DNA of 64,000 nt from Flaccisagitta enflata. Lineage: Eukaryota. Under the pieces are notes generated by a model, which worked only from the letters and a program-made list of their open reading frames with translations, ran no database searches and was not told where the DNA came from. The stretch's first letter is position 1. The number at the start of each line of letters is the position of its first letter. The DNA is taken from positions 17,546,001-17,610,000 of the forward strand of contig OZ231126.1 of assembly GCA_965153355.1 (NCBI GenBank), written 5' to 3'. Positions 1 through 39,227 of this stretch are shown in pieces. Made by a program: the position numbers and the translations under genes.

Positions 1-1486
1 TCTGCATAATCATAAAGATATTTTTTTTTCTTTCTGCACCACTGAAAACATGATTTTGACATTGAGGCGACCGATATACGCGATGTACGGTTTTATATGC
101 GGCATTCGGTTTTATATGCATCCATGTTGTGCAATCAATGGTGAATCTTTAAACAGGTGCTCAAGGAATGAGCAATTTAAGCCGTTTGGACCGATTGAAA
201 CAAGGCCGGATACACGGCAGGACAGTCGCGGACGGTTGGCAGGAGCAGTAATGCATAAACCGCCCACAATTCAGAAATGTGACGGACGGACCGACGGACC
301 GACGGACCGACGGACCGACGGACCGACGGACCGACGGACCGACGGACCGACGGACCGAACGACACGGCAAGGTGTAGAGTCGCGTGTCCGCGACTAAAAA
401 TACTTTCGCTGCGCGGGTGTTCCATTGCTACTGTAAGCAGGTTAATTCCATCTAAATCTAATACGTGGGTGCGCAGAGAGGTGCTCAGAATTTGATTCAA
501 TCTGGCCTGTCTTTCAGCAAACATATTTAATTTTTGCCGAAAAAGTGTATCAAGAAAGTAGGAATAGTTTTGTAGGAAAAGTAGACTGTAAGGTACTGGA
601 TGCACTAGTAATGGAACCAAAAAGGAAATATAAGAAGGGAGCTAACCATCTTTTGATTTTTGAAATAAGTTGATTTTACATCAAAGCAACAATTGAGCTA
701 CCTTATTTCCATTTTCCAATCACGCTTGTGCTTAGATTCTGAGCGCAGTGCGATGGTCTTATTATTTTTTTCCTCCTTCTACATTTTGAAGCTTAGTCTT
801 TTCACAAACAGACTTAAGTGGAAAAGCCACGAGTTTGGATGATTTAAATGTCTGATAAAAAGAATGAGATCCTTTTTAAAGCCACTTGAGTGTTTTTCAC
901 ATTGGATTCGGGGAGAAACTTTTTAATTACTTATCCTCAGGGGGAGAAATGACATTAATGGGCAAAATTATAGGACGCTCTTTTATATTGCGACCGTCGC
1001 GTTGGCTTTTTTCTTTCTGTGCTTGGCAAAATCCGAAGAGATTCATTTATTCCTTTTTTTTTAGTTTTTAAGTGAAGTAATCTTACTTCAAAGTAGTTCC
1101 TAATTTGCGATATTTTTGATATTGCTTTAAAAAGGAATTTTGGTCCAGGCTGTAAAAAAAATCATTTTTTAAAAGTTCATGAATGATTTATTGCCCACTA
1201 GCTATGCAAGTTTGTTAAAGCTTCAAGTATCTTTTGCAACTGTCGTTTTGTCCCTTGACTGTTAAAATCTTCAATACCATCATCTTTTTTCCCTTCAAAG
1301 ATTTAAAAAGGCTGAGGCCTGGTTTACGATCTCTCTAACTTGTTTACCCTCTTTAATCGCCCCCGAATTTGTATTCGTCTCTACCTTTTGTCTCTTTATA
1401 CAAGCTCTAAGAGAGCTCTAAGAAACAAACCTTCGATTGTTCATGTTATGCTTCTCTTTAATTATGCCTGCGCAGTTGGCGACAAT

Positions 1487-1583
<97 letters not shown>

Positions 1584-1703
1584 TTTCTCCCGCCTACTAC
1601 TCTTGTCTTTTCCTTAAGAAATAGAGCATAACTTTATTTGGGTTCCCGCTGGTCAATCGGGGTTTGATTTGCATCATTGGCCGTTAAACTGTCAGACGGT
1701 AAT
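1..1703. repeat. Left copy of inverted duplication (partner 22457-24321); may extend left of the window
   Basis: Collinear with the reverse complement of 22457-24321 throughout (e.g. 1-150 vs 24175-24321; 1340-1700 vs 22460-22830), with scattered substitutions and small indels. Confidence 0.9.
201..395 (-). mobile_element. HINE/DINE-1-like non-autonomous Helentron (family A)
   Basis: On - strand: AGTCGCGG..CGCGACT 5' inverted repeat, (GTCC/GTCG)n tract, 3' subTIR CGCGACT, GCCG-TGTATC-CGGC hairpin, CTTG end. Sits in a T-run; absent from the paralogous site at about 23773-23778. Confidence 0.8.
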
Positions 1704-3967: not shown

Positions 3968-4922
3968 GTCCATCTTGCAAAACTAACTTAGCGAAATCCA
4001 TTCTGAGTCTAACCCAATCATGGTTCACTTAGCCAATGGACTAAAAAAGGGAAAAAAAAAATAAGCAAAGTCCTAAACCTTTCAAAGGCGCAAGAAGATC
4101 CAATCTGGTATTTCCCGTTACCTGCACAAGTTGAGCTAGCTGCATTATTTCTAGTCGCAAAAAAAAATCAAGTAAGGAGGCTAAAAAAAGGTCAATCTTG
4201 TGTAAAAAAAACCTGGGGAATCCAACCGTGACCTTTTTAGAGCCCTACGCGGGGGCGTTTAGAAACGGCCCCAAAAAAAACACCAAAAAATGGCTATTTT
4301 TGGGTATTTTTGGCCAAAATTTTGTACTTAAATGGAGGCCAAGTGTTTGAATTCATAGTTGGATATATTTCAAAATGTGAGAGACCAGTAAAACAAGAAT
4401 CATCATATCAATGAAATCGCTGTAAGTTCGCCGGCCCTGGATCAAAACAAACCCGAACTGTAGAATCGCTTACCGTAACTAATTGGATTTTTCGTCTGCA
4501 TCTCATTCTATCCTCAGCATCTGATGCGTTTCATCTTTCTGTAACGACATCACCCCGCTTTATTCAGTATCAGAAAGAAATGTAGGTCACACAATACCGA
4601 TTGACACCTTACTATCGTACGTTTAAGCAACCAATTAAGATTTCTTCTCCAAATATGAAGGAAAAAGATTTCCGACAGCAATATGCAAATTAGCGCAAAC
4701 GACTACCTCAGCGAAAATTATTTTGTTTTAATTGACATCTTAAAGATAACAAAACCACGATGTTTGAAACTTTTTTTTTAGCTTTCTTCATGCGTCACAG
4801 CAAAATAAGAATAAGAAGTTGATTTCAACTCTTTTAACATGAACAAACAGAGAATGATTTATTCTTTTACGTCGTCTTATGCGGTCTGACATTTAGAATT
4901 GTTTCTGTTGTTGTCGATTCCA

Positions 4923-5248
4923 TCACTCTAAGACGATGAGATCTACCAGGCTGTCATCAATTTCGTCGGAAATGTCCACTAATACGATCTGTTTGGACGA
5001 GGCGAGACCAACCACAGGTGGCGTTGCCGGCAACGAGAAAGATAAGGGAGAGGAGGCAGCTAGAGGAACAGAGGAGTTAGGAAGAGAGGAAAGAGGAGGA
5101 GGAGGCAATGGAAGATGAAGGGAAGGATCCGAAGATTGAGGAGGAGGAGGAGGAGGAGGAGGAGGAGGAGGAGGCAATGGGAGATGAAGGGAAGGATCCG
5201 AAGATTGAGGAGGAGGTGGAGCCGGTCCCTCGTAATCCGAAACACCAT
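4923..5248 (-). CDS. Possible Pro-rich exon near the 3' end of the transposon (function unknown)
   Basis: Strong acceptor ttttttttcccaaacag; open Pro/Ser-rich frame ending in an acidic IVLVDISDEIDDSLVDLIVLE tail; internal duplication. No clean splice link to the transposase found. Confidence 0.3.
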
Positions 5249-5270
5249 CTGTTTGGGAAAAAAAAACATA

Positions 5271-5445
5271 CAGTGGAGCTTCACTAGAGCGCACCCGCTA
5301 ATAAGGCATGCCTGCCTATAAGGCATTCTACCCTCTGTCCCATGAGAGATTTTGTAGTTATTTCTATGTTGGCAATAAGGCAGCTTCAGTATAAGGCATA
5401 ATTTTTACTCTGTCCCTTGAAATGCGCTCTAGTGAAGTCCAACTG
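5271..5445. mobile_element. Tc1/mariner-pogo-type MITE
   Basis: TA TSD (5269-5270, 5446-5447); TIR CAGTGGAGCTTCACTAGAGCGCA vs CAGTTGGACTTCACTAGAGCGCA. Confidence 0.85.
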
Positions 5446-5573
5446 TATGTCATTTTAGTTTAAAATCGCAAACGTTTCTTACATCACTATCCCTGTTTAA
5501 CAACCTGCACGGCGCAGGCTGCACCTGGTGGTCAGGTTGGGTGTATCTGATCATTTAATCAACTACAAAGATT

Positions 5574-6642
5574 TTAACCTCTTGAGGGATTCTGATAGAG
5601 TTCAATCGTAGTCAAGGCATCCATCAGCGCTTCATGGTTCTGTTTTCGTGTCTTCTTTCCCGTCTTTGAAAAAATCAAATCGCGTAACTCTTTGCTTGAA
5701 AGTTCAGCGTATGGCGAAGTTTGGGCTGCTGTCGCTGCTGCTCTTTCTTCTGCTTCTTTTTCTCGTCGCTGCCTCTCAGCTGCCTTTTGTCTTTTGCTGA
5801 TTTCCGGATTTGGCGTAGGCGCTTTTCGTTTTCGCGAGGATTTGGCCTCTTCCTCTCTAGCTATCGTCTCTTGCAGTTGGAGACGCAACTCTGCCTGAAG
5901 GGTCTGCTTCGGGAATTTGTGTGAGGTGCGTTGCAAGTGAGTCCGCTTGACACTATCGTTCGCCGCCTCTACAAGTTCGCCCGATAACTTGTTTACGTTG
6001 CCGAACAACTTCACACTCATGGGCAAATGCGTAACAATTATGTGGACGTATGGGGTGATCGAAAATTTCATCTCCTTGAATAATTTCCCCCATTCTTGAG
6101 CTTTTCTTGCTACCTCCTCCGCGTCAGATTGTGAGCAATTGCTAACCAATTCTAATAGGGCCGAGAATTCTTCAAACAGACCGGCAAACTTCATTTTTCT
6201 CTCCCCCGGTAAAATGCCGTCGGAGTTTCTAAGCGCAGGGCCAATTCCTTGAAAAAGCTTCCTCCACAACACACCTGTCAATGCGTTGTGAGACAGTTTT
6301 GCCCTTCCATGATTATCTGCCTCATAAGTGGTAAATGAAACCCCCAAGTCACGTACAAGCTGCTCCAAAGGCTTCGCCAATTTGTCGCCAGTGTACTCGA
6401 CGACTTCATTCATCATTTCGCTCATTAATTTGTCGCCAACCCGCATTCGAGCATGAAGGATGTCTGGGGGAACGCCGTAGATGAGTGGAGTTTCCGCGCC
6501 AAGAGGAATGGTTGGGATAGGTGGTCGCTTCACGCTGGCCTCTTTGTTTCCAGACAGTCGACCAGCTTCTCGACCGATATTTCCGCGCGTCCTTGCTTCC
6601 CCCACTTCATTGAACACTTTCCAGCCGTCATCTTGATCAATC

Positions 6643-6643
<1 letters not shown>
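5574..6643 (-). CDS. RAG1/Transib-like transposase, last coding exon (LH motif, HxxxxH, catalytic E, C-terminal SAP/HeH-like helices)
   Basis: PPDILHARMR resembles RAG1 DALHCDIG; ITPYVHIIVTHLP..FGNVNKLSGELVEAAND resembles RAG1 ITNYFHKTLAHVP..DGSIGAWASEGNESGNK; (CT)n-cag acceptor, phase 1. Confidence 0.85.
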
Positions 6644-6727
<84 letters not shown>

Positions 6728-7263
6728 GAGTGAGAAAGAGAGTGAGAAAAAGAGAACGTGATCTTTCCGTATTATCAATGAGTCTGTGTTTTGTCTATCT
6801 GGTTGTCTTTCTTCTTTATCGCTTTCTTTCAAGCTTTCATTTGGCAATTTCTTAAAAGTCCGTCCGCCCGTCTGTGTCTCATTCTAACTTTCTTTCTTCA
6901 ATTTATTCTTTCAATCTTTTATACTTTACCTTCTTGGGTACATTCAATCTTTCTTACATTCTGTCTTTCTCTCTTTCAAACTTTCTTTCAACCTTTCTAT
7001 TGATATTTCTTTGTTTGTCTGTTTCTTTCTTCCTTCCTTTCTTCCTTCCTTCCTTCCTTCCTTCCTTCCTTCCTTCCTTCCTTCCTTCCTTCCTTTTTCT
7101 TTCTTTCTTTCTCTCTTTCTTCCTTTCTTTCTTTCAATCTTTCTTTCTGTGTCTGTCTGTCTGTCCGTCTGTCAGTCTGTCTTTCTTTCCTTCTTTCTTC
7201 AATTCATTCTTTCAATCTTTTACTTTTTCTTTCCAATGCCAGTACTTTCTTTCTTCCGTTTTT

Positions 7264-7375
7264 AGGTGCGACAAAGCACCTCTATAACTGGCTCTGTCCG
7301 TCGGTTGGTCTGTCTGTCTGTAACGCATTCGTTTGACGATCAACACGTCGCACCTTATTGGCCTACTTGGCCTTG
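7264..7375 (+). mobile_element. Short HINE-like element
   Basis: AGGTGCGA..GCACCT 5' inverted repeat, GTCT/GTCG tract, TCGCACCT 3' subTIR, GGCC-TACTT-GGCC hairpin, CTTG end, in a T-run. Confidence 0.7.
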
Positions 7376-7392
7376 TTTCTTTCTTTCCTTTT

Positions 7393-7456
<64 letters not shown>

Positions 7457-7623
7457 TTTCTTTCTTTCTTTTTTCTTTCTTTCAATCTTTCTTCCAATAT
7501 TTTTTGAATCATTGTTTCTTTCTTTCTCGCTTTCTTCTAATCTTTCTTTGTCTTTCTGTCAGTCTGTCAGTCTTTCTTACTTTTTTTCTTCTTTCCTTTA
7601 TTTTTTTTCTCTCTGTCTGTCTG

Positions 7624-7696
<73 letters not shown>

Positions 7697-7744
7697 TTAG
7701 TCTGTCTGTCTTTCTGTCTGCCTGACTGTCTCAATCTGTCTTAC

Positions 7745-7843
7745 TTGAGCCGAAAGCATCTTTGTGTGCCGTGCAAAAAAGACATGGATAGTTCGCTGTC
7801 GCATTTGAGAGTCCGTACACCATCAACAGAAATTTGAGATCTC
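7745..7843 (-). CDS. Transposase exon with second catalytic Asp and CxxC
   Basis: (G)DLKFLLMVYGLSNATANYPCLFCTAHKD resembles RAG1 [29 protein letters not shown] and the Chapaev GDLK..CFLC motif; cag acceptor, gtaag donor; 99 nt, phase 1 to 1. Confidence 0.85.
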
Positions 7844-8010
7844 CTGTTAACAAAGCCGGATACACGGGCCAAGACAGTGTGGCGTTAATAATTCTTAGAC
7901 ATATCCCTAGCTCTATCAGACCTATCCCAAGCTCTATTGGCCTAATCATAGATGAATGAGATAATAAATGAAATGACAAGTAACATGACGGATGAACGAG
8001 ATGAGTTTTT

Positions 8011-8192
8011 AAGTGCGTCCTCGCACTTCTATTAGAGGTCATGTCCGTTGGTCGGTCGGTCGGTTGGTGGGTCGGTAACGCAATCGTTTCACTCATTCAT
8101 TCATTCATTCATTTATTCATTCATTCATTCATCAAAAACGTTCATTCACAAATTCTTAATCAAGCGAGGCGCACTTATTGGCCTTAACTTGG
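8011..8192 (+). mobile_element. HINE-like element with (ATTC)n core; same family at 35149-35561 (-)
   Basis: AAGTGCGTCCTCGCACTT inverted repeat, GGTC tract, GCGCACTTATTGGCC 3' part; same motifs occur inverted at 35149-35561. Confidence 0.75.
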
Positions 8193-8329
8193 TAAGTGTG
8201 TGTGTGTAAGTGTGAGTGTGTGTGTGTGTGTGTGCGTGTGTGTGTGTGTGCGTGTGTGTGTGCGTGTGTGTGTGAGTTTTTGTCAGTAGGGGGGATGTAC
8301 ATACCCCTGTCATCCCGTCCATGACCATA

Positions 8330-8479
8330 CACTTTTTATCTTTTATAAGAACCTAGTTTATAAGAACATCAAGGCTTGAAATTGCCCCAAAATTAAGAAC
8401 ACTATAGTTATTTCATTAGTAGCTATCTCTTTTGAAGGCTTTGGCCAAAAAATGATGTTCTTATAAAAAATAAAAAGTG
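8330..8479. mobile_element. TA-flanked MITE
   Basis: TIR CACTTTTTATCTTTTATAAGAAC / GTTCTTATAAAAAATAAAAAGTG; TA on both sides. Confidence 0.75.
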
Positions 8480-8520
8480 TAATACAGCCCGTATCCTACT
8501 CCTAACTGGAAAATTGTTAC

Positions 8521-8638
8521 CTCCGAGGACACAATTTATCCTTATCCTGGCACCCGTTTCTTCATCGACGTAGACGCGGTTCTGTGACGCAAACTCTTGA
8601 AATTCTTTCATCGTTTGCGTGAGGCTTGCAGCGAGGAT
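8521..8638 (-). CDS. Transposase exon (ILAASLTQTMKEFQEF..INCVLG)
   Basis: Spliced junction ESYD|ILAASLTQTMKE resembles RAG1 ESDHETLTAILSPLIAE; aag acceptor, gtaac donor; phase 0 to 1. Confidence 0.75.
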
Positions 8639-8734
8639 CTTGAGCAGTTAGAAAAGGACGCCAAGACTGGCCTTAATCATCACATCACATATCATTTGTT
8701 TTTATTTCTTTTGGGATTATTTATATCATCTTAC

Positions 8735-8977
8735 ATCGTAGCTTTCATTAGCCATAACCACAGCGATTGTGCCGAGTTGTAAGGGCTTCGTGTCATTGCA
8801 AAGCGTAAGCGTTGTCACGGTGGCATTTTCGCGACGCGTTATCGACGTTCCATCGGAGGCGAGTTTGAATGTCGCTTCATCACCATCTTTAAGGCCTCCA
8901 ATACGCAGTTGGTGTTTTAGCATCGAGACAGCCTCCGGCCCAAGAGGCACGCGAGCGCCAGGAGTTGTCCCGGCCGT
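8735..8977 (-). CDS. Transposase exon with first catalytic Asp
   Basis: TFKLASDGT resembles RAG1 VVKESCDGM and Transib KWGCDGS; (CT)n-ccag acceptor, gtaaga donor; 243 nt, phase 0 to 0. Confidence 0.8.
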
Positions 8978-8978
8978 C

Positions 8979-9102
<124 letters not shown>

Positions 9103-9289
9103 GACAGAGAGAGACAGAGAGAGACAGAGAGAGACAGAGAGAGACAGAGAGAGACAGAGAGATAGAAAGACGGAGCGATAGAGACGGAGAGACACACAGA
9201 GAAATAATAACTGGAGAAAGAATGAAAATAAAAACAGGACAATTGGCAGAAAAATCTCAAAAGAGTATGGATCCGCAACTGGGGTCAAT

Positions 9290-11607
9290 CGGCGTTGTCA
9301 AATGGCGTCTTCAAATGGCATTGTCAAACGGCATTGTCGAACGGCATTGTCGAACGGCATTGTCGAACGGCATTGTCAAACGGCATTGTCAAACGGCATT
9401 GTCAAACGGCAATGTCAAATGGCATTCTCAAACGGCATTCTCAAGCGGCATTCTCAAACGACATTGTCAAACGGCATTGTCAAATGGCATTGTCAAACGG
9501 CATCGTCAAATGGCATGGCATTGTCAAACGGCATTGTCAAACGGCATTGTCAAATGGCATTGTCAAACGGCATTGTCAAACGGCATTGTCAAACGGCATT
9601 GTCAAACGGCATTGTCAAACGGCATTGTCAAACGGCATTGTCAAATGGCATTCTCAAACGGCATTCTCAAACGGCATTCTCAAACGGCATTGTCAAACGG
9701 CATTGTCAAATGGCATTGTCAAACGGCATCGTCAAATGGCATGGCATTGTCAAACGGCATTGTCAAACGGCATTGTCAAATGGCATTGTCAAACAGCATT
9801 GTCAAACAGCATTGTTAAACGGCATTGTCAAACGGCATTGTCAAACGGCATTGTCAAACGGCATTGTCAAATGGCATTGTCAAACGGCATTGTCAAACGG
9901 CATTGTCAAATGGCATTGTCAAACGGCATTGTCAAACGGCATCGTCAAATGGCATTGTCAAACGGCATTGTCAAATGGCATTGTCAAATGGCATTCTCAT
10001 ACGGCATTGTCAAACAGCATTGTCAAACGGCATGGCATCGTCTAACAGCATTGTCAAACGGCATTGTCAAACGGCATTGTCAAACGGCATTGTCAAATGG
10101 CATTGTCAAACAGCTTCGTCAAACGGCATTGTCAAAAGGCATTGTCAAAAGGCATTGTCAAACGGCATTGTCAAATGGCACTGTCAAAAGGCATTGTCAA
10201 ACGGCATCGTCAAACGGCATTGTCAAATGGCATCGTCAAACGGCATCGTCAAATGTCATTGTCAAATGGCATTCTCAAATGGCATCGTCAAACGGCATGG
10301 CATCATCAAACAGCATTGTCAAACGGCATTGTTAAATGGCATTGTCAAATGGCATTGTCAATCAGCATTGTCAAACAGCATTGTCAAACGGCATTGTCAA
10401 ACGGCATTGTCAAACGGCATTGTCAAACGGCATTGTCAAATGGCATCGTCAAACGGCATTGTCAAACGGCATTGTCAAATGGCATTCTCATATGGCATTG
10501 TCAAACAGCATTGTCAAACGGCATGGCATTGTCTAACAGCATTGTCAAACGGCATTGTCAAACGGCATTGTCAAATGGCATTGTCAAACAGCATTGTCAA
10601 ACGGCATCGTCAAACGGCATTGTCAAAAGGCATTGTCAAACGGCATTGTCAAATGGCATTGTCAAACGGCATTGTCAAACGGCATCGTCAAACGGCATTG
10701 TCAAACGGCATCGTCAAACGGCATTGTCAAATGTCATTGTCAAATGGCATTCTCAAACGGCATCGTCAAACGGCATGGCATCGTCAAACAGCATTGTCAA
10801 ACGGCATTGTCAAACGGCATTGTCAAATGGCATTGTCAAACAGCATTGTCAAACAGCATCGTCAAACGGCATTGTCAAAAGGCATTGTCAAACGGCATTG
10901 TCAAACGGCATTGTCAAATGGCATTGTCAAACGGCATCGTCAAACGGCATCGTCAAACGGCATCGTCAAACGGCATCGTCAAACGTCATTGTCAAATGTC
11001 ATTGTCAAATGGCATTCTCAAACAGCATCGACAAACGACATCGTAAAACCGCATGGCATCGTCAAACGGCATTGTTAAACGGCATTGTCAAACGGCATTG
11101 TCAAACGGCATTGTCAAATGGCATTGTCAAATGGCATTGTCGAACGGCATCGTCATACGGCATCATCAAACGGCATTGTCAAATGACATTGTCAAACGGC
11201 ATTGTCAAAAGGCATCTTCAAACGGCATTGTCAAATGGCATTGTCAAACAGCATTGTCAAACAGCATTGTCAAACGGCATTGTCAAACAGCATTGTCAAA
11301 CAGCATCATCAAACGTCATTGTCAAACGTCATTGTCAAACGTCATTGTCAAACGGCATTGTCAAACGGCATTGTCAAACGGCATTGTCAAACGGCATTGT
11401 CAAACGGCATTGTCAAATGGCATCGTCAAACGGCATTGTCAAACGGCATGGCATTGTCAAACGGCATTGTCAAACGGCATTGTCAAACGGCATCGTCAAA
11501 CGGCATTGTCAAACGGCATTGTCAAACGGCATTGTCAAACGGCATTGTCAAACGGCATTGTCAAACGGCATTGTCAAACGGCATTGTCAAACGGCATTGT
11601 CAAATGG
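9290..11607. repeat. 13-bp minisatellite (GGCATTGTCAAAC)n, about 175 units, intronic
   Basis: Direct tandem units with point variants and periodic GGCAT insertions. Confidence 0.95.
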
Positions 11608-11734
11608 TGCGGACAAAAAAAGAGAGAAAGAAGATAGAAAGAAAGAATGAATGAATGAATGAATGAATGAATGAATGAATGAATGAACGAACGAATGAAT
11701 GAATGAATGAATGAAAGAAAGAAAGAAAGAAAAA

Positions 11735-11778
<44 letters not shown>

Positions 11779-11882
11779 GAGAAAGAAAGAAAGAAAGACT
11801 GGCATTTGAGAATGTATCGCAATTGTTCAGTATGAAAAGAGACTGATGAATAAGACGCAAAAAATTTGAAAAAGATTGTCAC

Positions 11883-12732
11883 CGTGGATATGTTTCCAAT
11901 TTGACTGTTGAGCTCGTGCTCGCGGTTTTTGACGTGAGACGCGCATGGTACGTCAGCGATGTTCCGCAATTTTGCGTAAGCCGAATCAGACAGTCTTTCT
12001 TCGTCCTTCCATCTTGACATGTTCTGAAGCTGCTTCCGTTGTTGAGGATCCAATTCTTCGTAAGTGGGTGGAGCTTTCATGTTGACCTCGAGACGCTCAC
12101 CATTTTCTGAATCTTTGAGGACCATCTTCTCTAGAACCAGACCACGTTTTTCGCCGAATTTGTCGACTTTTTCGCCCCACTGCTTTTTGTAAGCTTGTTT
12201 CGTTTTAGCAATAGCATCAGGGCCGCACTCGGAAAGTCGCTTTTGGCCATACGGTTTAGCTGCTTGTTCCTTTTCTCGACGTAGTTGTTGATTGTCGGCT
12301 TGAAGGCGATCAACCTCTTGCTGTTTTTCACACACCTCAGTTTCAATGGCTGCAATGTGACTCGTTAAAAAACTGTTTCTTTCTGTTAAATCCTTTGATC
12401 TCTGCCGCTCCTCTTCTTGCTCCATCAAGATTTTTTCCCTCTCCTTGACGACGCTTTCCCGCTCATCTGCGCATTTCCCCAACTCTTTCTGCATAATCTG
12501 CAGGCCTTGTTGAAGGTCTTCAACTTGAGTGCGTAACTCTCGCCTTTGAGGATCCCTCTCACATTCCTCCTCAATGGTGATGGAAGAAACATCAACGTCA
12601 AGCTCATCGGGTAAGATATTCAGCTGGAAAATTTCCTTTCGAGTCTTCGCCCAACGCCGCTTCTGGAGAATTCGCCGCCGCAAAATTCCGTACCGTTTTC
12701 GTAAAGGTCTGCTGTTCCTCAGGCCTAGACAC
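11883..12732 (-). CDS. Transposase exon: coiled coil plus NBD/DDBD-like region
   Basis: Long E/Q/K/R heptad stretch, then WKDEERLSDSAYAKLRNIADVPCASHVKNREHELN resembling RAG1 IRVNTFLSCSQYHKMYR..FQPLHALRNAEKVL; ACG|gtgac donor, phase 0. Confidence 0.75.
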
Positions 12733-13138
12733 CTGATTAAATAGTATATGATTTTGTTTACGCTCTATAGAATGCCTCGATTACCCTTCATCAATTATGA
12801 CTTGTTCATTCATTCATTCATACATTCATTCATTCATTCATTCATTCATTCATTCTTATTTCCATTGGAAAACATAAAAAATGGAAAAAGAACTAATCAT
12901 TCATCTATTCATAGATTGATTGATTCATTCATTCATTCATTCATTCATTCATTCATTCATTCCGTAATTGATGACCTTATTGATTCATTCATTCATTCAT
13001 TCATTCATTCATTCATTCATTCATTCATTCATTCCGTAATTGATCACAATGTAACTGGACCCAGTTCTCAAATTTTGTACAGTAGTACACTAATTGACCT
13101 TGCTATAAATATGGAAATACTCCAAAACCTCGTCTTAC

Positions 13139-13260
13139 GTGGTTTCATTAACCGCTTGCAACCCACGCTCGATCCAAAATGCACCACTTGCGGCAACCGC
13201 AAAAACTGCTTGTTTTGTATTTGAGGACCGCGGGACAATAGACGGAATTTCTCGTAAAAC
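13139..13260 (-). CDS. Tentative 5' exon of the transposase gene
   Basis: ttctgcag acceptor; AC|gtaaga donor gives phase 0 to 2, matching exon 12732. An alternative donor at 13129 in another frame also fits. Confidence 0.45.
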
Positions 13261-13368
13261 CTGCAGAAGGAAAAGATGGTCATCCGTACCATAGCTCCAG
13301 AGTTAACAAAGTGACGCGGGATGGCAATATTGTTGCGGACGGGTGGGCAGTGGCATACCATGGCGTAC

Positions 13369-13419
13369 CGTGTAGGTTAGAATTGAAGCTGTGCTGCTGC
13401 TGCGGCTGCTGCAGCAGTT
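13369..13419 (-). CDS. Tentative 51-nt exon of the transposase gene
   Basis: tttcttcag acceptor, ACG|gtac donor, open, phase 0 to 0. Confidence 0.35.
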
Positions 13420-13616
13420 CTGAAGAAACATCACCCCTACAACCCTATTGACTGGTGCAACTCATAGCAGCATCATCACAATTTTAATCCAAATAGTCAT
13501 TTCGGTAGTGACGTCTACATCCACAAGGCGCCCGAGTTGCCCGTGGCCCGATTTGCCCCACTCTCCCCTATCTTTTTAATGCTGCTTTGTTTATGGCTGA
13601 TTGAAGTTTCAAGAAA

Positions 13617-14034
13617 CAAGGCCGGATACAGTCGCGTACGGGTGGGCAGGGGCCATATTTTAGGTCATTAGACCATTTGGGCAGGAGCAGTGGGGTCAAA
13701 AAAATGAAATTATAAAAAAAGTAAAAGATGACTGACCAACCAACCGACTGACAGACAGAAAAAGCGGGTTGTACAGTCGCGTGTACGCGACTTGAAAATA
13801 TGTAAGAACTAGAAATAAGTAACATTTTTAGTCGCGAGCTACGCAACCCTACAGCCCGCTTTGTCGGTCTGTCCATCGGTCCGTCTGTCTGTCTGCTTGT
13901 CCCTCCATCACACTTTACTTTTGTAGGGGTTTTGCGGTCTTTGGCCTAACTGCTCCTGCCCAAACAATCAAGTGACGTCAAATACGGCCCCTGCCCACCC
14001 ACACGCGACTGGGGTAGCCGTGTATCTGGCCTTG
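13617..14034. mobile_element. Two HINE family A copies head-to-head (13617-13792 -, 13830-14034 +)
   Basis: Both have the AGTCGCG 5' end, GTC tract, GCCCACCC..CGCGACT and GGCCTTG 3' end. Confidence 0.75.
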
Positions 14035-14214
14035 TTTAAGAGTAAGTTTTGTGGATATTTCAATGGAAGTAATCAGTGACATTATCGAGAAAAAAAATCA
14101 CAGCAAACAACAAAGAAACAAAGATAAAAAAAAAGATAGAAAGAAAAAAGAAAAAAGACAAAAAAGACAAAAAGAAAAAAAAGACCAAAAGAAAAAAATA
14201 GAAAGATAAAAAAA

Positions 14215-14322
<108 letters not shown>

Positions 14323-14597
14323 ATGAAAGAGAAAAAACAGTTATGTGCGAGAGAATATCGTTATTTTTTTTCTTTTTAGTGCCATTTATGCAAAAAAAAA
14401 AATGATTAAAAAAAAAAGCAACATAGGTGATAGGGAGCAAAACGGATTGGGGACAGATTGACCAACCCACTGACCTAATGACCAATGGAGTCACCAATTG
14501 ACTACCCATCCAACCAAATGAATGACGTACATTTTAACTAGTTCAGAATTACTAAGCACGCAACAAAACCAAACCGTTTATTTAATAGCTTTCTCAC

Positions 14598-15272
14598 CAT
14601 ATTTGGCTGCGGTTCCACGTCATCGACATGATTTGCAGATGTTAGATCCGATGTTCTTGCATTCGACGTAACCGTTACCGTTGAATTCGCATCTGATGAA
14701 CTTGCATCCGACAAATCCGCACCCGACGAACACGCACCCGACGAACACGCACCCGATGAACTCGCACCCGTTGAACTCGCACCCGATGAACTCGCACCCG
14801 ATGAACTCGCACCCAATGAACTCGTACCCGACAAACTTGTACCCGACAAACTTGTACCTGACGAACTTGTACCCGACGAACTTGTACCCGATGGACTCGT
14901 ACCCGATGGACTCGTACCCGATGGACTCGTACCCGATGGTCTTGAAGACGGCGCTGATAAAGACGACAATGCCGTGGAGGCTGACGATGCAAACGGCGAC
15001 GTAAACGGCGAAGTAAACGGCGACGTAAATGGAAAAGTCGCTGGCGGCAGATTTGTAGACGGCAAGTTTGTTGACGATACTGCGCTCGAAAGGTTTCTCC
15101 CAATCCCGACATCAGCCTCATCTTCAGAATCTCCGGCAGGAATACGCTTCTTGATCCTTATCGCGTACCGAACGTTGTGTGAGGGAGGGGGCGTCGCATC
15201 CAAATCGTCCTCTTCATTTTCTGAGCCCGTGAGCGTCTCTTCGCTCACCGAGCGCGCCAAGTCTGGTCCCAA
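14598..15272 (-). CDS. Tentative N-terminal exon: acidic/Ser-rich with 15-bp (SGTSP/SGASS) repeats
   Basis: 225 open codons, GC-richer than flanks, ATG|gtgaga donor in phase 0; same strand, inside the element. True start codon not identified. Confidence 0.5.
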
Positions 15273-18200
15273 ATTGCTTATTTATCAGAATTATCATTGC
15301 TATATTTTTTTGAATTAAGCAGAACCCATAAAATTAACGTATTCATTTTTACAGTCTATTGATAGTCCAATAAGCTAAGCCGCTTATTCAAGAAAAAATC
15401 AAGATACCTATCATAATTGTTTGTGTTCCATTAGGCGTTGGCTTTGTGCGAAATGAAAAACGGCTTAGCTATAATTTTCTCCCGTGCGTTGATGATTTTT
15501 TTATTCAACTTATTTTACAACGACGTTGCAGTTAGCAACTCGGACACGGTAAACTCATCTACTAGCTTGACCTGGTATACCACTGTTTGGTTCATATGTG
15601 ATGATGGGGCTATTGTGGGGTACCTAAAAAGGCTCAAAAAGGGCCCCTAAAGCGAAAACTTAATAGTTTTTTTTTTCACTATGGCTACATAAATGATTGG
15701 AATGCCTTCAAATTTGAATTGGAAGTTCCTAATAAATGCAACTATCATCATGCAAAAAATTGTGGCCCTCCTTAAATGACTTCATAGGAAAATTTGGCCC
15801 CAAAAAACAAAAATCGCTCCAAAAAAATTGGGTTTTTGAGTTCATTGACCTAAAAACAACATTTAAAGGTCAGGGTCCCCCAATTTTTTTTCTCTTTTGC
15901 TAATATAAGATGTTTGGAGGTTCCAAAAAAAATGTCAGAACATATTTCCAAGAACTGACTGAGATATGACTATTTGAAGTGACATGGTAAAATTAAAAAA
16001 ATGACAAAAATGACCATTTTTGGGGATTCTTAGAAAAAATTAAGTGCAAAAAGGGGTCCCAACAGTTTTAATTCATGATTGGGGACACTTAAAGATTTGA
16101 GAGACTAGGAAAACAAGAATCATAATGATGGGGTACCTAAAAAGGCCCAAAAAGGGCCCCTAAAGCAAAAAAAAAAGTTTTTTCTTCATTGTGGCTACAA
16201 AAATGATTGGAATGCCTTCAAATTTGAAATGGAAGTTCCTAATAAATACAACTACCATCATGGAAAAAATTGTGGCCCTCCTTAAATGACTTCATAGGGA
16301 AATTTGGCTTTCTGAGTACATTGACCTAAAAACAACATTGAAAGGTCAGGGTACCCCAATTTTTTTTCTATTTTGCTAAAATAACATGTTTGGAGGTTGC
16401 AAAAAAAATTTCAGGCAATATTTTAGAAAAATGGCTGAGATATGACCATTTGAAGTGACATGGTAAAACTGAAAAACGGCGAAAAAGCCATTTTTTGGGA
16501 TTCTTTGAAAAATTTAAGTACAAAAAGAGGTCCCAATAGTTTTAATTCATAGTTAGGGAAACTCCAAGATGTAAGAGACAAGGAAAACAAGAATCATGAT
16601 GATGGGTCTATTGTGAGGTACCTAAAAAGGCCCGAAAAGGGCCCCTAAAGCAAAAAATAAATATTTTTTTTTCATTGTGGCTACAAAAATGATTGGAATG
16701 CCTTTAAATTTATATATTTATATATTTTTTGTTTTAGGGGCCCTTTTTGGGCCTTTTTAGATACCCCACAATAGCCCCATTGTCATGTTCCTTATTTTCC
16801 TAGTCCCCTATATCTTTAAGTGATCCCAAATAAGAATTAAAACTATTGGGACCTCTTTTTGTACTTAAAATTTTCAAAGAATCCCAAAAAATGGCTATTT
16901 TCGCCGTTTTTCAGTTTTACCACGTCACTTCAAATGGTCATATCTCGGCCATTTTTAAAAAATATTGCCTGAAATTTTTTTTTGCAACCTCCAAACATGT
17001 TATTTTAGCAAAATAGAAAAAAAAATTGGGGTACCCTGACCTTTCAATGTTGTTTTTAGGTCAATGAACTCAAAAACCCGATTTTTTTGGAGCAATTTTT
17101 GTTTTTTTTTAGCCAAATTTTCCTATGAAGTCATTTAAGGAGAGCCACAATTTTTTCCATGATGGTAGTTGTATTTATTAGGAACTTCCACTTCAAATTT
17201 GAAGGCATTCCAATCATTTTTGTAGCCACAATGAAGAAAAAACTTTTTTTTTCGCTTTAGGGGCCCTTTTTGGGCCTTTTTAGATACCCCACAATAGCCC
17301 CATCATTATGATTCTTGTTTTCCTAGTCTCTCACATCTTTAAGTGTCCCCAATCATGAATTAAAACTGTTGGGACCCCTTTTTGCACTTAATTTTTTTTA
17401 AGAATCCCCAAAAATAGTCATTTTCACCATTTTTTAATTTTACCACGTCACTTCAAATGGTCATATCTCAGTCAGTTCTTGGAAATATGACCTGAAATTT
17501 TTTTTGGAACCTCCAAACATCTTATATTAGCAAAAGAGAAAAAAAATTGGGGGACCCTAACCTTTAATTGTTGTTTTTAGGTCAATGAACTCAAAAACCC
17601 AATTTTTTTGGAGCGATTTTTGGTTTTTGGGGCCAAATTTTCCTATGAAGTCATTTAAGGAGGGCCACAATTTTTTGCATGATGGTAGTTGCATTTATTA
17701 GGAACTTCCAATTCAAATTTGAAGGCATTCCAATCATTTATGTAGCCACAATGAAAAAAAAACTATTAAGTTTTCGCTTTAAGGGCCCTTTTTGAGCCTT
17801 TTTAGGTACCCCACAGTAGCCCCATCATGATTCTTGTTTTACTAGTCTCTCACATCTTGAAGTATACCCAACTATGAATTTAAATACTTGGCCTCCATTT
17901 AAGTACAAAATTTTTGCCAAAAATACAAAAAAATAGCCATTTTTTGGTATTTTTTTGGGGCCGTTTCTAAACGCCCCCGCGTAGGGCTCTAAAAAGGTCA
18001 CGGTTGGATTCCCCAGGTTTTTTTACGTAAGATTGGGCCTTTTTTAGCCTCCTTACTATTTTTTTTTTTTTTTTCTACGTAGCCCAACTTGTGCAGGTAA
18101 CGGTTTCCATGATTTTTGTTTGGCTAAAAATATAGGCTAAAAATATGAAAACGTTTAAGGCTTTTTGACCTTAATCAAATGTTACTAACAATTTTGTATA

Positions 18201-22456: not shown

Positions 22457-22602
22457 CCAATAACGGTATGACAGTTTAAGGGCCAATGATGCAAATCAAA
22501 CCCCGATTGACCAGCGGGTACCCAAATAAAGTTATGCTCTATTTCTTAAGGAAAAGACAAGAGTAGTAGGCGGGAGAAAGGAAGAGAAAGAGAGGAAGAG
22601 AA

Positions 22603-22666
<64 letters not shown>

Positions 22667-24321
22667 ATTGTCGCCAACTGCGCAGGCATAATTAAAGAGA
22701 AGCATAACATGAACAATCGAAGGTTTGTTTCTTAGAGCTCTCTTAGAGCTAAGAGCTTGTATAAAGAGACAAATGGTAGAGACGAATACAAATTCGGGGG
22801 TGATTAAAGAGGGTAAACAAGTTAGAGAGATCGTAAATAAAACCAGGCCTCAGCCTTTTTGAATCTTTGAAGGGAAAAAAGATGATGTTATTGTAGATTT
22901 TAACAGTCAAGGGACAAAACGGCAGTTGCAAAAGATACTTGAAGCTTTAACAAACATGCATAGCTAGTGGACAATAAATCATTCATGAACTTCAAAAAAT
23001 GAATTTTTTTACAGCCTGGACCAAAATTCCCTTTCAAAGCAATATCAATAATATCGCAAATTAGGAACTGCTTTGAAGTAAGATTACTTCACTTAAAAAC
23101 TAAAAATAAAGAAATAAATGAATTTCTTCGGATTTTGCTAAGCATAGAGAGAAAAAAGCCAACGCGACGGTCGCAATATAAAAGAGCGTCCTATAATTTG
23201 GCCCATTACTGTCATTTCTCCCCCTGAGGATAAGTAATTAAAAAGTTTCTCCCCGAATCCAATGTGAAAAATACTCAAGTGGCTTTAAGAAAGGATCTCA
23301 TCCTTTTTATCAGACATTTAAATCATCCAAACACGTGGCTTTTCCACCAAAGTCTGTTTGTGAAAAGACTAAGCTTCAAGAGGATTTATCTTCTAAATGT
23401 AGAAAAAGGAAGAAGATAATGAGACCATCGCACAGCGCTCAGAATCTAAGCACAAGCTTGATTGGAAATAAGGTAGCTTAATTGTTGTTTTGATGTAAAA
23501 TCAACTTATTTCAAAATCAAGAGATGGTTAGCTTCCTTCTTAGGTTTCCTTTTTGGTTCCATTACTAGTGCATCCAGTACCTTACTGTCTACTTTTCCTA
23601 CAAAACTATTCCTACATTCTTGATTCATTTTGTCAGTAAAAATTAATTATGTTTGCTGAAAGACAGGCCAGATTTAATCAAATTCTGAGCACCTCTCTGC
23701 GCACCCACGTATTAGACTTAGATGGAATTAACAAGCTTACAGTAGCAATGGAACACCCGCGCAGCGAAAGTATTTTTTCAATCGGTCCAAACGGCTTAAA
23801 TTGCTCATTCCTAGAGCACCTGTTTAATAGCCTACTATGAAAACACACTTTTTCAAAGAAAAGTTCTCTATCAAAGCGATATGACTCAAAATCATAAAAA
23901 TAGATGGTCCATAACAAAAATTTGACCATGGGGCTTCTATAAAGTGTGCCCGCCACCACCCCCATATCCCATAGGAAATGTACAGGAGGATTTTAGTCTA
24001 CAGGGTCTCCTATCTTTTATAATGGGAAATGGGGCAAGTGGCGGGCACACTTTATAGAAGCCCTATGACCAAATTTTTGTCTTGAACCATCTTTTTTTGT
24101 GATTTTGAGACATATCTCTTTGATAGAGAACTTTTCTATGAAAAAGCGTATTTTCATAGTGGGCTACTGTTTAAAGATTCACAATTGATTGCACAACATG
24201 GATGCATACAAAACCGAATGTCGCATATAAAACCGTACATCGCGTATATCGGTCACCCCAATGTCAAAATCATGTTTTCAGTGGTGCAGAAAGAAAAAAT
24301 ATATCTTTATGATTATGCAGA
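22457..24321. repeat. Right copy of inverted duplication (partner 1-1703)
   Basis: Reverse-complement collinearity with 1-1703. Confidence 0.9.
23828..24166. mobile_element. Palindromic hAT-type MITE
   Basis: 8-bp TSD CTGTTTAA (23820-23827, 24167-24174); TAG ends; near-complete palindrome; empty site in the paralog at about 149-156. Confidence 0.9.
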
Positions 24322-37219: not shown

Positions 37220-38941
37220 CTATGCTTTGCTGGCAAATTCTGATGGACATTGGTCACACTGATAGGGTTTTATACCCAAATGGATACTCTTGTGAGCTTT
37301 AAGATTACTGATTGAGGAAGAAGTAAATGAACATTGATCACATGCGTAAGGTTTTTCTCCCTTGTGCATCATCAAATGAGATCTAAACCCCGAATTATTC
37401 GAGTAACTCTTTGGGCAGAATTCACATTGATATGGTTTTTCTCCAGTATGCGTGCGATTGTGAATCTTCAAATCTTTATTCGTGTAAAACACTGACTGGC
37501 ACAATTCACATTTGATCATTTTTGGATTGTGCTTTTTAGGCGTGGAAGTTGGATCTCCTATTTTTCCATTGTGACTCTTTAAGTGTTTTTTCAGATTACA
37601 TGATTGAGAAAAGGCCGACGGACATAGGTTGCATTTGAAAGGTCTTTCTCCAGTGTGAACTCGCTCATGACTTTTCAATTGGTTACTCTCCGTGAATTCC
37701 TTTGGGCAAAGATTACACTTGTGAGGCTTTTCTCCTAAATGGACTTTTTGGTGAATGCGAAGAGAATTACTGTAACCAAACGTTGATGGGCAATCTTTGC
37801 ACTTATATGGTTTTTCTTCCGTATGGCTTGTCATGTGCAATTTTAAAGATGGTTTTGAAGAGAAAGTCAAAAAACATGTGTCACAACGGTGGAGTTTCAT
37901 TCCGCTGTGAATCCTTTCCTCGTGTCTTTTTAGATTAGACTTTGCACGAAACTGTGCTGGGCATGATTTACATTGAAATGGCTTTTCTCCAGTATGCACC
38001 CTTTGATGATGTGTCAAATAGCTCATTCTCGAAAAAGATGATGAACAGAGTGAACATCTGTAGGGCTTTTCTACGACATCGCGATGGTCTTTGATGTGTT
38101 TGCCAAGGTGAGATTTGGTGCTGAACTTTTGAGGACACAAGTGACATTCAAAACCCTTCTCTCCGCTGTGTATGCTGAGCATGTGATTATTAAGACTGCC
38201 TTTTAAGCGAAACACTGATGGACATAGTTCACATTTAAATGGTTTTTCACCAGTATGGATCATGACATGTTTGTTAAGATGTTTCTTTAAGGCAAAACTC
38301 CTCTGACAAGTTTCGCATTGATAGGGCTTCTCTCCCGTGTGGGTTTTTGTGTGAATAGTTAAGTCCCCCTTTTGAGCAAATGCTGATGGACATTGATTGC
38401 ATTGGTAGGGTTTTTCACCAGTGTGGGTTCGTATATGGTTAGTTAAAGTAGGCTTTTGTGTAAAAGTAGCTGGACACAAGTGACAGTTATAAGGTTTCTC
38501 CCCTGTATGGATCCTCGTATGCGTCTTTAGGGCAGATTTACATGCAAAACTGGCCGGACATACTTCACATTTGAAAGGTCGTTCACCAGTATGAGTCCTC
38601 ATGTGCTGTTCTAGTTTGCTTTTATTTGGAAAGGCAGCGGAACATGATCCACAACTTATTTTTAGTACTTTGATTCCTGAATGAACCTTCATGTGCGTTG
38701 TCAAATCGGATTTCCGTGCAAATGCTGCTTGACATTCGTTACATGCAAATGGTTTTTCTCCAGTATGAATTATAGTATGAGCATCTAGTTTATATCTACT
38801 AACACATGTAGCAAGACATATCTCACATTGTAACGGTTTTTTATCCTTTTGCATTCGGCGCTTAGTAGCGTTTTCTGATTCACTTGAATTTCTAATATTG
38901 TTTTGTGAAACATTCAATTTCATTTCATGCGATTCTTCCAT
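37220..38941 (-). CDS. Tandem C2H2 (Kruppel-type) zinc-finger protein, 18 complete fingers
   Basis: 573-aa uninterrupted ORF with CxxC..HxxxH fingers and TGEKP linkers; the 19th finger is cut by TAG. Confidence 0.92.
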   Translation of the reverse strand: MEESHEMKLNVSQNNIRNSSESENATKRRMQKDKKPLQCEICLATCVSRYKLDAHTIIHTGEKPFACNECQAAFARKSDLTTHMKVHSGIKVLKISCGSCSAAFPNKSKLEQHMRTHTGERPFKCEVCPASFACKSALKTHTRIHTGEKPYNCHLCPATFTQKPTLTNHIRTHTGEKPYQCNQCPSAFAQKGDLTIHTKTHTGEKPYQCETCQRSFALKKHLNKHVMIHTGEKPFKCELCPSVFRLKGSLNNHMLSIHSGEKGFECHLCPQKFSTKSHLGKHIKDHRDVVEKPYRCSLCSSSFSRMSYLTHHQRVHTGEKPFQCKSCPAQFRAKSNLKRHEERIHSGMKLHRCDTCFLTFSSKPSLKLHMTSHTEEKPYKCKDCPSTFGYSNSLRIHQKVHLGEKPHKCNLCPKEFTESNQLKSHERVHTGERPFKCNLCPSAFSQSCNLKKHLKSHNGKIGDPTSTPKKHNPKMIKCELCQSVFYTNKDLKIHNRTHTGEKPYQCEFCPKSYSNNSGFRSHLMMHKGEKPYACDQCSFTSSSISNLKAHKSIHLGIKPYQCDQCPSEFASKA

Positions 38942-39227
38942 CTTCGGCTTAAATTCCTTTTTTTTTTTTCATTTAGGTCTTCGAGGCAGGGAGGAAAAAC
39001 GTTCGATCATCAAAGTAGTGAGCGAAGAAACATGCACTTCTTTAAAAGGGCACTCAGGACAGCGAATGGGAGTAGGATATCATTCGACGACAAGGACCAC
39101 AGATTTTAAGTATGGAGCGAGCATTTGAGGCTTAGATCACGGATTTGAGACGAAAGGCACTATGGCTAACAGACGGGCCGATTGGACCTGATTAACTTTA
39201 ATCTGCTCGGCGCGACAGAGTTCTGCG

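What the first reader, a model, noticed from the sequence alone, without database searches (positions are those of the whole stretch)
4402..4420. Apparent 2-bp TSD and minimal TIR for a RAG1-like enzyme
Seen: the mirror arm gives the empty site aatcATgatgggg, and the filled site is aatcAT-[CATATCAATGAA..TTCATATGTG]-ATgatgggg. Established: Transib/RAG make 5-bp TSDs, Chapaev 3-4 bp, and Mirage and many animal EnSpm 2 bp; CAC ends are typical of Transib, RAG and Chapaev. The right end CACATAT is heptamer-like and the left end CAT may be a mutated CAC. An alternative reading is a 5-bp TSD ATCAT/ATGAT with one mismatch and a damaged left end.
Basis: partly seen in the sequence, partly recalled or inferred. 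Interest (0 to 1): 0.7.

Follow-up and report, generated by a model that had tools for sequence, protein, structure and literature searches.

The report
RAG1-like transposon duplicating one base
This jumping gene encodes an intact relative of RAG1, the enzyme that assembles antibody genes, but it duplicates only one base of host DNA where it lands, not the two to five described for its relatives.

Summary
The element is real and RAG1-like, but the reported 2-bp TSD and CAC end are wrong. It spans 4404-15598 (CATATC...CATATG). The 'TG' read as part of a heptamer is flank: the two bases after CATATG vary across 44 copies. The mirror arm used as the empty site is an outlier; 29 of 29 other host-repeat copies read AAGAATCAT|GATGATGG. 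The window insertion therefore duplicated one base, T. Across 68 paired copies in four subfamily groups, 45 show a 1-bp match (16.3 expected; 0 of 100,000 permutations reached it); 2-bp matches are near chance, 8 vs 4.8. Of the 23 exceptions, 14 fit one duplicated base plus an extra C on the transposon's 3' end, a state scattered on the tree. The gene reads as an intact 8-exon, 1057-aa DDE transposase, and a homolog folds like RAG1 (Z 27). A 2025 paper gives 2-5 bp for this clade; 1 bp is cited only for unrelated PHIS elements. Repbase was not checkable. Best reading: a RAG1-fold lineage that integrates with a 1-nt stagger.

The parts
4403..4403 (+). left copy of the 1-bp target-site duplication (T)
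   Evidence: 29 of 29 empty paralogs read AAGAATCAT|GATGATGG
4404..4416 (+). left TIR, downstream of the gene (CATATCAATGAAA; family consensus CATATCGACGAAA)
   Evidence: homology with other copies starts at this base while flanks differ; consensus
4404..15598 (-). whole autonomous-looking transposon, 11,195 bp
   Evidence: both ends shared with dispersed copies of 0.5 to 14.5 kb, one pairing 36.6 kb; closest copy 98-99% identical at both ends
5574..6643 (-). exon 8: H765, H902-x4-H907, catalytic E927, C-terminal tail, stop
   Evidence: AG acceptor, open frame; 76 matches in the genome
7745..7843 (-). exon 7: catalytic D670 (GGDLKFL), C689-x2-C692
8521..8638 (-). exon 6
   Evidence: GT-AG borders, in frame
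8735..8977 (-). exon 5: catalytic D590 (KLASDGT)
   Evidence: aligns with the invariant D-G of homologs
9211..11600 (.). 13-bp tandem array inside intron 4 (approximate limits)
11883..12732 (-). exon 4: coiled coil and pre-RNase H region
   Evidence: aligns with the homolog profile from residue 292
13139..13260 (-). exon 3
   Evidence: GT-AG borders, in frame; not confirmed by homology or RNA
14598..15262 (-). exon 2: Ser/Gly-rich low-complexity region with a 15-bp repeat
   Evidence: not confirmed by homology or RNA
15408..15414 (-). putative exon 1 (ATG ATA G)
   Evidence: inferred from a GT donor and frame only
15586..15598 (-). right TIR, upstream of the gene (read inward CATATGAACCAAA; family consensus CATATGGACCAAA)
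15599..15599 (+). right copy of the 1-bp target-site duplication (T)
4115..4403 (+). host foldback repeat, left outer arm, interrupted by the insertion
   Evidence: 87% inverted match to 17827-18103; 40 genomic matches listed
15599..18103 (+). rest of the host foldback repeat, including the mirror arm that lost a GAT at about 17821-17826

Best explanation
An autonomous-looking cut-and-paste DNA transposon of the RAG1-fold (CMCT) kind, with short imperfect 13-bp TIRs beginning CATAT (CATCT in a distant subfamily). Shown: the ends, the 1-bp duplication, an unbroken DDE reading frame and many dispersed non-autonomous copies. Inferred: the transposase excises the element and joins its two 3'-OH ends to target phosphates only one nucleotide apart, and host repair of the two 1-nt gaps gives the 1-bp TSD, at weakly palindromic A/T-rich sites. 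About one insertion in five carries one extra C on a transferred 3' end. That base most likely arises at each transposition from an end cut one base long, for example by re-cutting a head-to-tail (signal-joint-like) junction, whose next base is always C.
For: Empty site 29 of 29. 1-bp match 29 of 44 in the window's group (10.05 expected; 0 of 200,000 permutations), 13 of 15 in a group whose transposase-bearing copies are about 45% identical in protein (0 of 100,000), and 45 of 68 overall. Further empty paralogs fit 1 bp (L053) or 1 bp plus the extra base (L102, L028, L068). The extra-C model fits 14 of 23 non-matching copies against 7.07 expected, 55 of 100,000 permutations; A or T as the extra base fits 3 of 9 and 3 of 10. 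The extra C needs 10 changes for 11 copies, and two copies with identical ends differ in it. Eight GT-AG exons give 1057 aa without a stop, with D590, D670, E927, CxxC and HxxxxH. The homolog profile hits RAG1 at E 7e-10; the model of homolog P0039 matches RAG1 at Z 27.1, rmsd 3.5, 434 aligned, and HzTransib at Z 22.6, rmsd 4.2, 406 aligned.
Against: 23 of 68 copies do not show a plain 1-bp match and 9 fit neither 1 bp nor the extra-C model. Among those 9: one clean 5-bp repeat (L083, CCATA; 5-bp matches 2 of 68 vs 0.15 expected, the other in a CT microsatellite) and three that read as 2 bp (L052, L077, L084). In group B only 2 of 7 match plainly (1.0 expected), 2 more with the extra base. G as the extra base also fits 3 of 4, which a junction or hairpin origin does not predict. 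The extra-C model was formed after seeing these data. Three extra-C cases (L004, L054, L094) read equally as 2-bp TSDs, and L028 also reads as 3 bp. The L115 paralog is ambiguous. Empty sites are paralogs, not alleles; the one allele test was inconclusive. The fold was predicted for a homolog, not the window's protein. No expression or activity was shown, and exons 1-3 are unconfirmed.
Confidence: 0.8

Rival explanations
1. 2-bp TSD with a CAC-type right end, as in Mirage, animal EnSpm or ESTA.
For: The mirror arm lacks a GAT and so gives an AT overlap. 8 of 68 copies have a 2-bp match, three of which fit only that reading. A Transib relative with an apparent TA TSD is described (bioRxiv 10.64898/2026.08.26.747230).
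Against: 29 of 29 paralogs carry the GAT; the bases after CATATG are not conserved; 2-bp matches are near chance, 8 vs 4.82.
Confidence: 0.03
2. The stagger is variable: mostly 1 nt, sometimes 2, 3 or 5, and the 'extra C' cases are partly longer TSDs or later mutations.
For: L083 5-bp, L052/L077/L084 2-bp, L028 3-bp readings; 3-bp matches 4 of 68 vs 1.19 expected. RAG itself gives 3-5 bp mixes (PMC1131882).
Against: It does not explain why 11 of 15 non-matching group A copies begin their right flank with C, nor the net +2 with a non-target base at L102 and L068. It is compatible with the best explanation as a minor component.
Confidence: 0.3
3. Same 1-bp TSD, but the extra C is a P nucleotide from a hairpin formed on the transposon end and opened one base off-centre: piggyBac-type polarity in a RAG1-fold enzyme.
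For: C is exactly the palindromic extension of the terminal G; it appears at either or both ends (L006 and L055 both) and arises anew at each insertion.
Against: hAT, Transib and RAG form the hairpin on the flank, not the transposon end (PMC5499845). A re-cut end-to-end junction predicts the same C, so sequence cannot separate the two.
Confidence: 0.15
4. Integration is blunt (0 stagger) and the single base is added by repair, templated or not.
For: A third of copies lack a plain match, and the extra bases lean to C/G, as untemplated additions can (recalled, no call).
Against: In 45 of 68 copies the added base equals the neighbouring target base, for all four letters in group A (T10, A9, G6, C4), and the target preference is symmetric about one central base.
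Confidence: 0.08

Closest known systems
Transib / RAG1 / RAGL (ProtoRAG)
   Same: RAG1 core fold with DDE triad and C2H2 zinc site; CA...TG ends.
   Different: 1-bp instead of 5-bp TSD; CAT instead of CAC/heptamer-like ends; only 14-17% identity in the structural alignments of homolog P0039; long coiled-coil N-terminus, and a weak SAP-like C-terminal hit in 3 of 40 homologs.
CMCT clade: EnSpm/CACTA, Mirage, Chapaev, Transib, Plavaka, ESTA, Lanisha (PMC12730594)
   Same: [quoted passage not shown]
   Different: The clade is described as making 2-5 bp TSDs; this lineage makes 1 bp. Its place in the CMCT tree was not computed.
Nozomi-related Transib elements (bioRxiv 10.64898/2026.08.26.747230)
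   Same: Precedent that TSD length (5, 3, apparent 2 bp) and termini change within a RAG1-fold lineage.
   Different: None reaches 1 bp; those are dipteran Transib elements, while the named relatives here are uncharacterised proteins of mussels, a soft coral, an acorn worm and a sea cucumber.
PHIS group (Harbinger, ISL2EU, Spy, Nuwa, Pangu)
   Same: Described as making no TSD or 1-4 bp TSDs (PMC10045372): the precedent for 1 bp.
   Different: A different transposase family; the PHIS groups in PMC4482050 have sequence-specific targets, whereas here the duplicated base can be any letter.

Membership tests
Transib/RAG | RAG1-core transposase with DDE triad and zinc-binding C2H2 | tested here: met
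   D590, D670, E927, C689/C692, H902/H907; profile hit to RAG1 E 7e-10; homolog fold Z 27.1
Transib/RAG | 5-bp TSD | tested here: not met
   0 of 44 in the window's group; 2 of 68 overall, one in a microsatellite
Transib/RAG | CAC(AATG) heptamer-like terminus | tested here: not met
   CAT at 44 of 44 right and 43 of 44 left ends; CATCT in group C
Transib/RAG | phylogenetic grouping with Transib or RAG1L transposases | not tested
   no reference Transib, Chapaev or RAG1L sequences were held as session proteins; no tree built
RAGL (ProtoRAG-type) | linked RAG2-like gene | not tested
CMCT clade | C(2)C and H(3-4)H motifs between second D and E | tested here: met
   CLFC at 689-692 and H902-x4-H907; definition
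CMCT clade | 5'-CA..TG-3' termini | tested here: met
CMCT clade | 2-5 bp TSD | tested here: not met
   1 bp in 45 of 68 and at the window's empty site
   3-bp 4 of 68, 4-bp 0 of 68
Chapaev | N-terminal Cys/His zinc domain (motifs quoted; its link to Chapaev is recalled) | tested here: inconclusive
   read by eye: no C-x2-C before residue 689 in the protein printed, but exons 1-3 are unconfirmed
Mirage / animal EnSpm / ESTA | 2-bp TSD | tested here: not met
   8 of 68 vs 4.82 expected
Any Repbase or Dfam family | sequence match to a catalogued consensus | not testable with these tools

The most novel reading that the evidence does not exclude
An unnamed lineage of RAG1-fold transposons, widespread in marine invertebrates, defined by CATAT/CATCT ends and a 1-nt integration stagger. 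It would be the shortest TSD in the RAG family, and its recurrent extra C would record an intermediate (re-cut end-to-end junction, or transposon-end hairpin) not described for Transib. An intact 1057-aa copy allows a direct test.
Probability: 0.45. Interest if true: 0.8.

Novelty: new variant of a known kind. Interest (0 to 1): 0.68.

Why it matters
TSD length reflects the spacing of the two strand-transfer reactions in the transpososome. A RAG1-fold enzyme that cuts the target one base apart instead of five must hold target DNA differently with the same catalytic core. That offers a natural comparison for how RAG and Transib set their geometry and how the ancestor of the V(D)J recombinase could vary. 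It widens the stated CMCT range (2-5 bp). It would also help explain why this family stays unannotated, since TSD-based classification cannot see a 1-bp duplication in single copies (inference). A near-scarless cut-and-paste enzyme could be of use as a tool.

Tried and rejected
Rows dropped before counting: 16 of the 60 raw pairs (12 internal false left-end motif matches, 1 damaged right end L005/L046, 3 segmental duplicates L018, L026, L121). Unpaired ends were left out (L008, L017, L023, L024, L120, L039). In groups B and C, L193-L195 (shared flanks; end duplicated in two of them) and L090 (no upstream end found) were left out; several divergent copies (L079-L082, L088-L092, L097-L099) gave no usable second end, and 8 group C loci were not paired. 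Word-indexed search with exon 8 found nothing among long proteins. Pfam gave nothing for the window's exons and only sub-threshold RAG1 hits in 9 of 40 homologs. JGI metagenome search found no locus, so no TSD was measured in another species. The ESM Atlas returned unnamed clusters and RAG1 clusters, a lead only. Earlier-findings look-ups were empty. Literature searches for a 1-bp TSD found nothing relevant; the library lacks most subscription journals and Repbase Reports. The CMCT tree file in the PMC12730594 supplement was cut; 18 of its 20 parts were not read. Inheritance of the extra C from a master copy was rejected. Retention of a donor-flank base was considered and disfavoured, because it would give all four letters.

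Full report
Observation. The insertion interrupts a foldback repeat whose mirror arm reads AAGAATCATGATGGGG. The window's own internal units of that repeat read AATCAT-AAT-GATGGGG or AATCAT-GAT-GATGGG, which cast doubt on the mirror arm as the empty site. A genome search with the left flank listed 40 matches; 30 were fetched, one being the window. All 29 others read AAGAATCAT|GATGATGG at this position. The mirror arm has lost one GAT.

The ends. The left 297 bases have 40 scored matches in the genome and the right 301 bases have 19. Homology starts at CATATC (4404) and stops at CATATG (15598). In 44 independent paired copies the first three bases are CAT at 44 right ends and 43 left ends, and the two bases after CATATG take 15 values, TG in 4. 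There is no CAC and no heptamer. The consensus ends are CATATCGACGAAA and CATATGGACCAAA, an imperfect 13-bp TIR, 10 of 13 matching in the window copy. With the right end and the empty site corrected, the window insertion gained one target base: AAGAATCA-T-[element]-T-GATGATGGGG.

Family-wide TSD. After dropping 16 of 60 raw pairs (listed under Tried and rejected), 29 of 44 show last-left = first-right base, against 10.05 expected from mismatched pairing; none of 200,000 permutations reached it. Matches of 2, 3, 4, 5 and 6 bp number 4, 3, 0, 0, 0 against 3.56, 0.86, 0.30, 0.12, 0.05. The catalytic exon has 76 matches in the genome, so I paired the ends of more distant subfamilies. Group C has CATCT ends and its transposase-bearing copies are about 45% identical to the window protein; it gives 13 of 15 (3.86 expected, 0 of 100,000). 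Group B (61-63%) gives 2 of 7 and group A2 1 of 2. Overall 45 of 68 match, 16.3 expected. The duplicated base can be any letter. Symmetrised flanks favour A or T at offsets 2 and 3 (72 and 76 of 90), a weak palindromic preference centred on one base.

The exceptions. Of 23 non-matching copies, 18 have G just outside the upstream 5' end or C just outside the downstream 3' end, which is a C added to a transferred strand. Removing it restores a 1-bp match in 14 (7.07 expected; 55 of 100,000 permutations). A and T as the extra base fit 3 of 9 and 3 of 10, G 3 of 4. This model was formed after seeing the data. Empty paralogs support it at L102 (94% identity; counted among the plain matches but with a net gain of two bases), L028 (94%) and L068 (73-89%); L053 fits plain 1 bp; L115 is ambiguous. 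On a tree of the 44 group A ends the state needs 10 changes for 11 copies (shuffled mean 9.8), and L068 and L069 have identical ends but differ in it. It therefore arises per insertion. Nine copies fit neither reading, including one 5-bp repeat (L083) and three 2-bp readings (L052, L077, L084); some variability in stagger is not excluded. An element-less allele exists at L055 in run X1, but its 8 junction letters were not shown.

The enzyme. Eight GT-AG exons on the minus strand give 1057 aa with no internal stop. The protein scores 348 bits against a profile of 40 homologs and carries D590, D670, E927, C689-x2-C692, H765 and H902-x4-H907. Exons 1-3 rest on splice signals and frame only. A profile of 13 genomic copies of exon 8 found 592 proteins at E up to 0.001; the two profiles align at probability 99.9. 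Named relatives are uncharacterised proteins of Mytilus, Dendronephthya, Ptychodera and Holothuria. The homolog profile hits RAG1 chains at E 7e-10 and BbRAG1L at 3e-5. The AlphaFold model of homolog P0039 (mean pLDDT 87) matches RAG1 at Z 27.1 (rmsd 3.5, 434 aligned), BbRAG1L at 24.4 (4.5, 452), HzTransib at 22.6 (4.2, 406) and P element transposase at 13.0 (5.5, 352). The window's own protein was not folded.

Mechanism. Shown: ends, duplication, reading frame, dispersed derivatives. Inferred from general DDE chemistry (PMC5499845, passages): the two 3'-OH ends attack target phosphates one nucleotide apart and gap repair duplicates that base. For the extra C, a head-to-tail junction re-cut one base long predicts exactly C at either end, and RAG is reported to open signal joints by nick-nick cleavage (PMC1820826, passages). 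A transposon-end hairpin opened off-centre predicts the same base but has the opposite polarity to that described for hAT, Transib and RAG. Untemplated addition remains possible. Sequence alone cannot decide.

Comparison. PMC12730594 (passages; supplement parts 1 and 19 of 20) defines the CMCT clade by C(2)C and H(3-4)H motifs, mostly CA..TG ends and 2-5 bp TSDs. This element meets the first two and not the third. PMC1131882 (passages) and PMC9435367 (first of two parts) give 5 bp for Transib and RAGL. bioRxiv 10.64898/2026.08.26.747230 (abstract and sections 14 and 20; supplements closed) reports 5, 3 and apparent 2 bp among Transib relatives, so TSD lability in this fold is known. PMC10045372 (passages) says PHIS elements make no TSD or 1-4 bp TSDs, so 1 bp has a precedent outside CMCT; PMC4482050 (passages) showed no 1-bp group in the passages seen. 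PMC4455052 and PMC8245031 (passages) added nothing. Searches for a 1-bp TSD found no relevant paper, but the library lacks Repbase Reports and most subscription journals. I recall, without a call, that Repbase holds unclassified non-autonomous elements named for 1-bp TSDs; whether any belong to this lineage is unknown. No phylogeny against reference transposases was built, so I do not file it under Transib, Chapaev or any named group.

Verdict. This is a RAG1-fold transposon lineage with CAT ends and a 1-bp TSD, well supported within one genome, with an intact copy in the window. New variant of a known kind; interest 0.68.

Noticed in passing
window 4115-4403 and 15599-18103: The host is an abundant foldback repeat of about 2.8 kb built of roughly 520-bp units in inverted arrangement; 899 first-look candidates, 40 scored. 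Family not identified.
   Followed up: partly
window 24-1703 and 22460-24299: A second, larger pair of long inverted arms (94-95% complementary) encloses both the foldback repeat and the transposon, suggesting three nested elements.
   Followed up: no
window about 9211-11600: A 2.4-kb array of a 13-bp unit lies inside intron 4 and creates long spurious open frames on the plus strand.
   Followed up: no
L083 / L158:228 (G000:C1:26990511-27001988): One group B copy is flanked by a perfect 5-bp repeat, CCATA, the Transib/RAG length, unlike its sisters.
   Followed up: partly
L112:1497-2214: A contig of run X1 lacks the element and has 8 other letters at the junction, possibly an excision footprint.
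   Followed up: partly
window 37220-38968 (-): A 582-aa open frame with about 17 C2H2 zinc fingers, unrelated to the finding.
   Followed up: no
window 5574-15414 (-): The transposase gene has seven introns, several filled with microsatellites, yet stays in frame; the genome holds many diverged copies with the catalytic exon open.
   Followed up: partly
L028 and L102: Two short derivatives sit in two copies of the same host repeat at different positions, so each supplies the other's empty site.
   Followed up: yes
L227, L232 (group B upstream ends): The first 14 bases of the TIR are tandemly duplicated at the end of two related copies.
   Followed up: no
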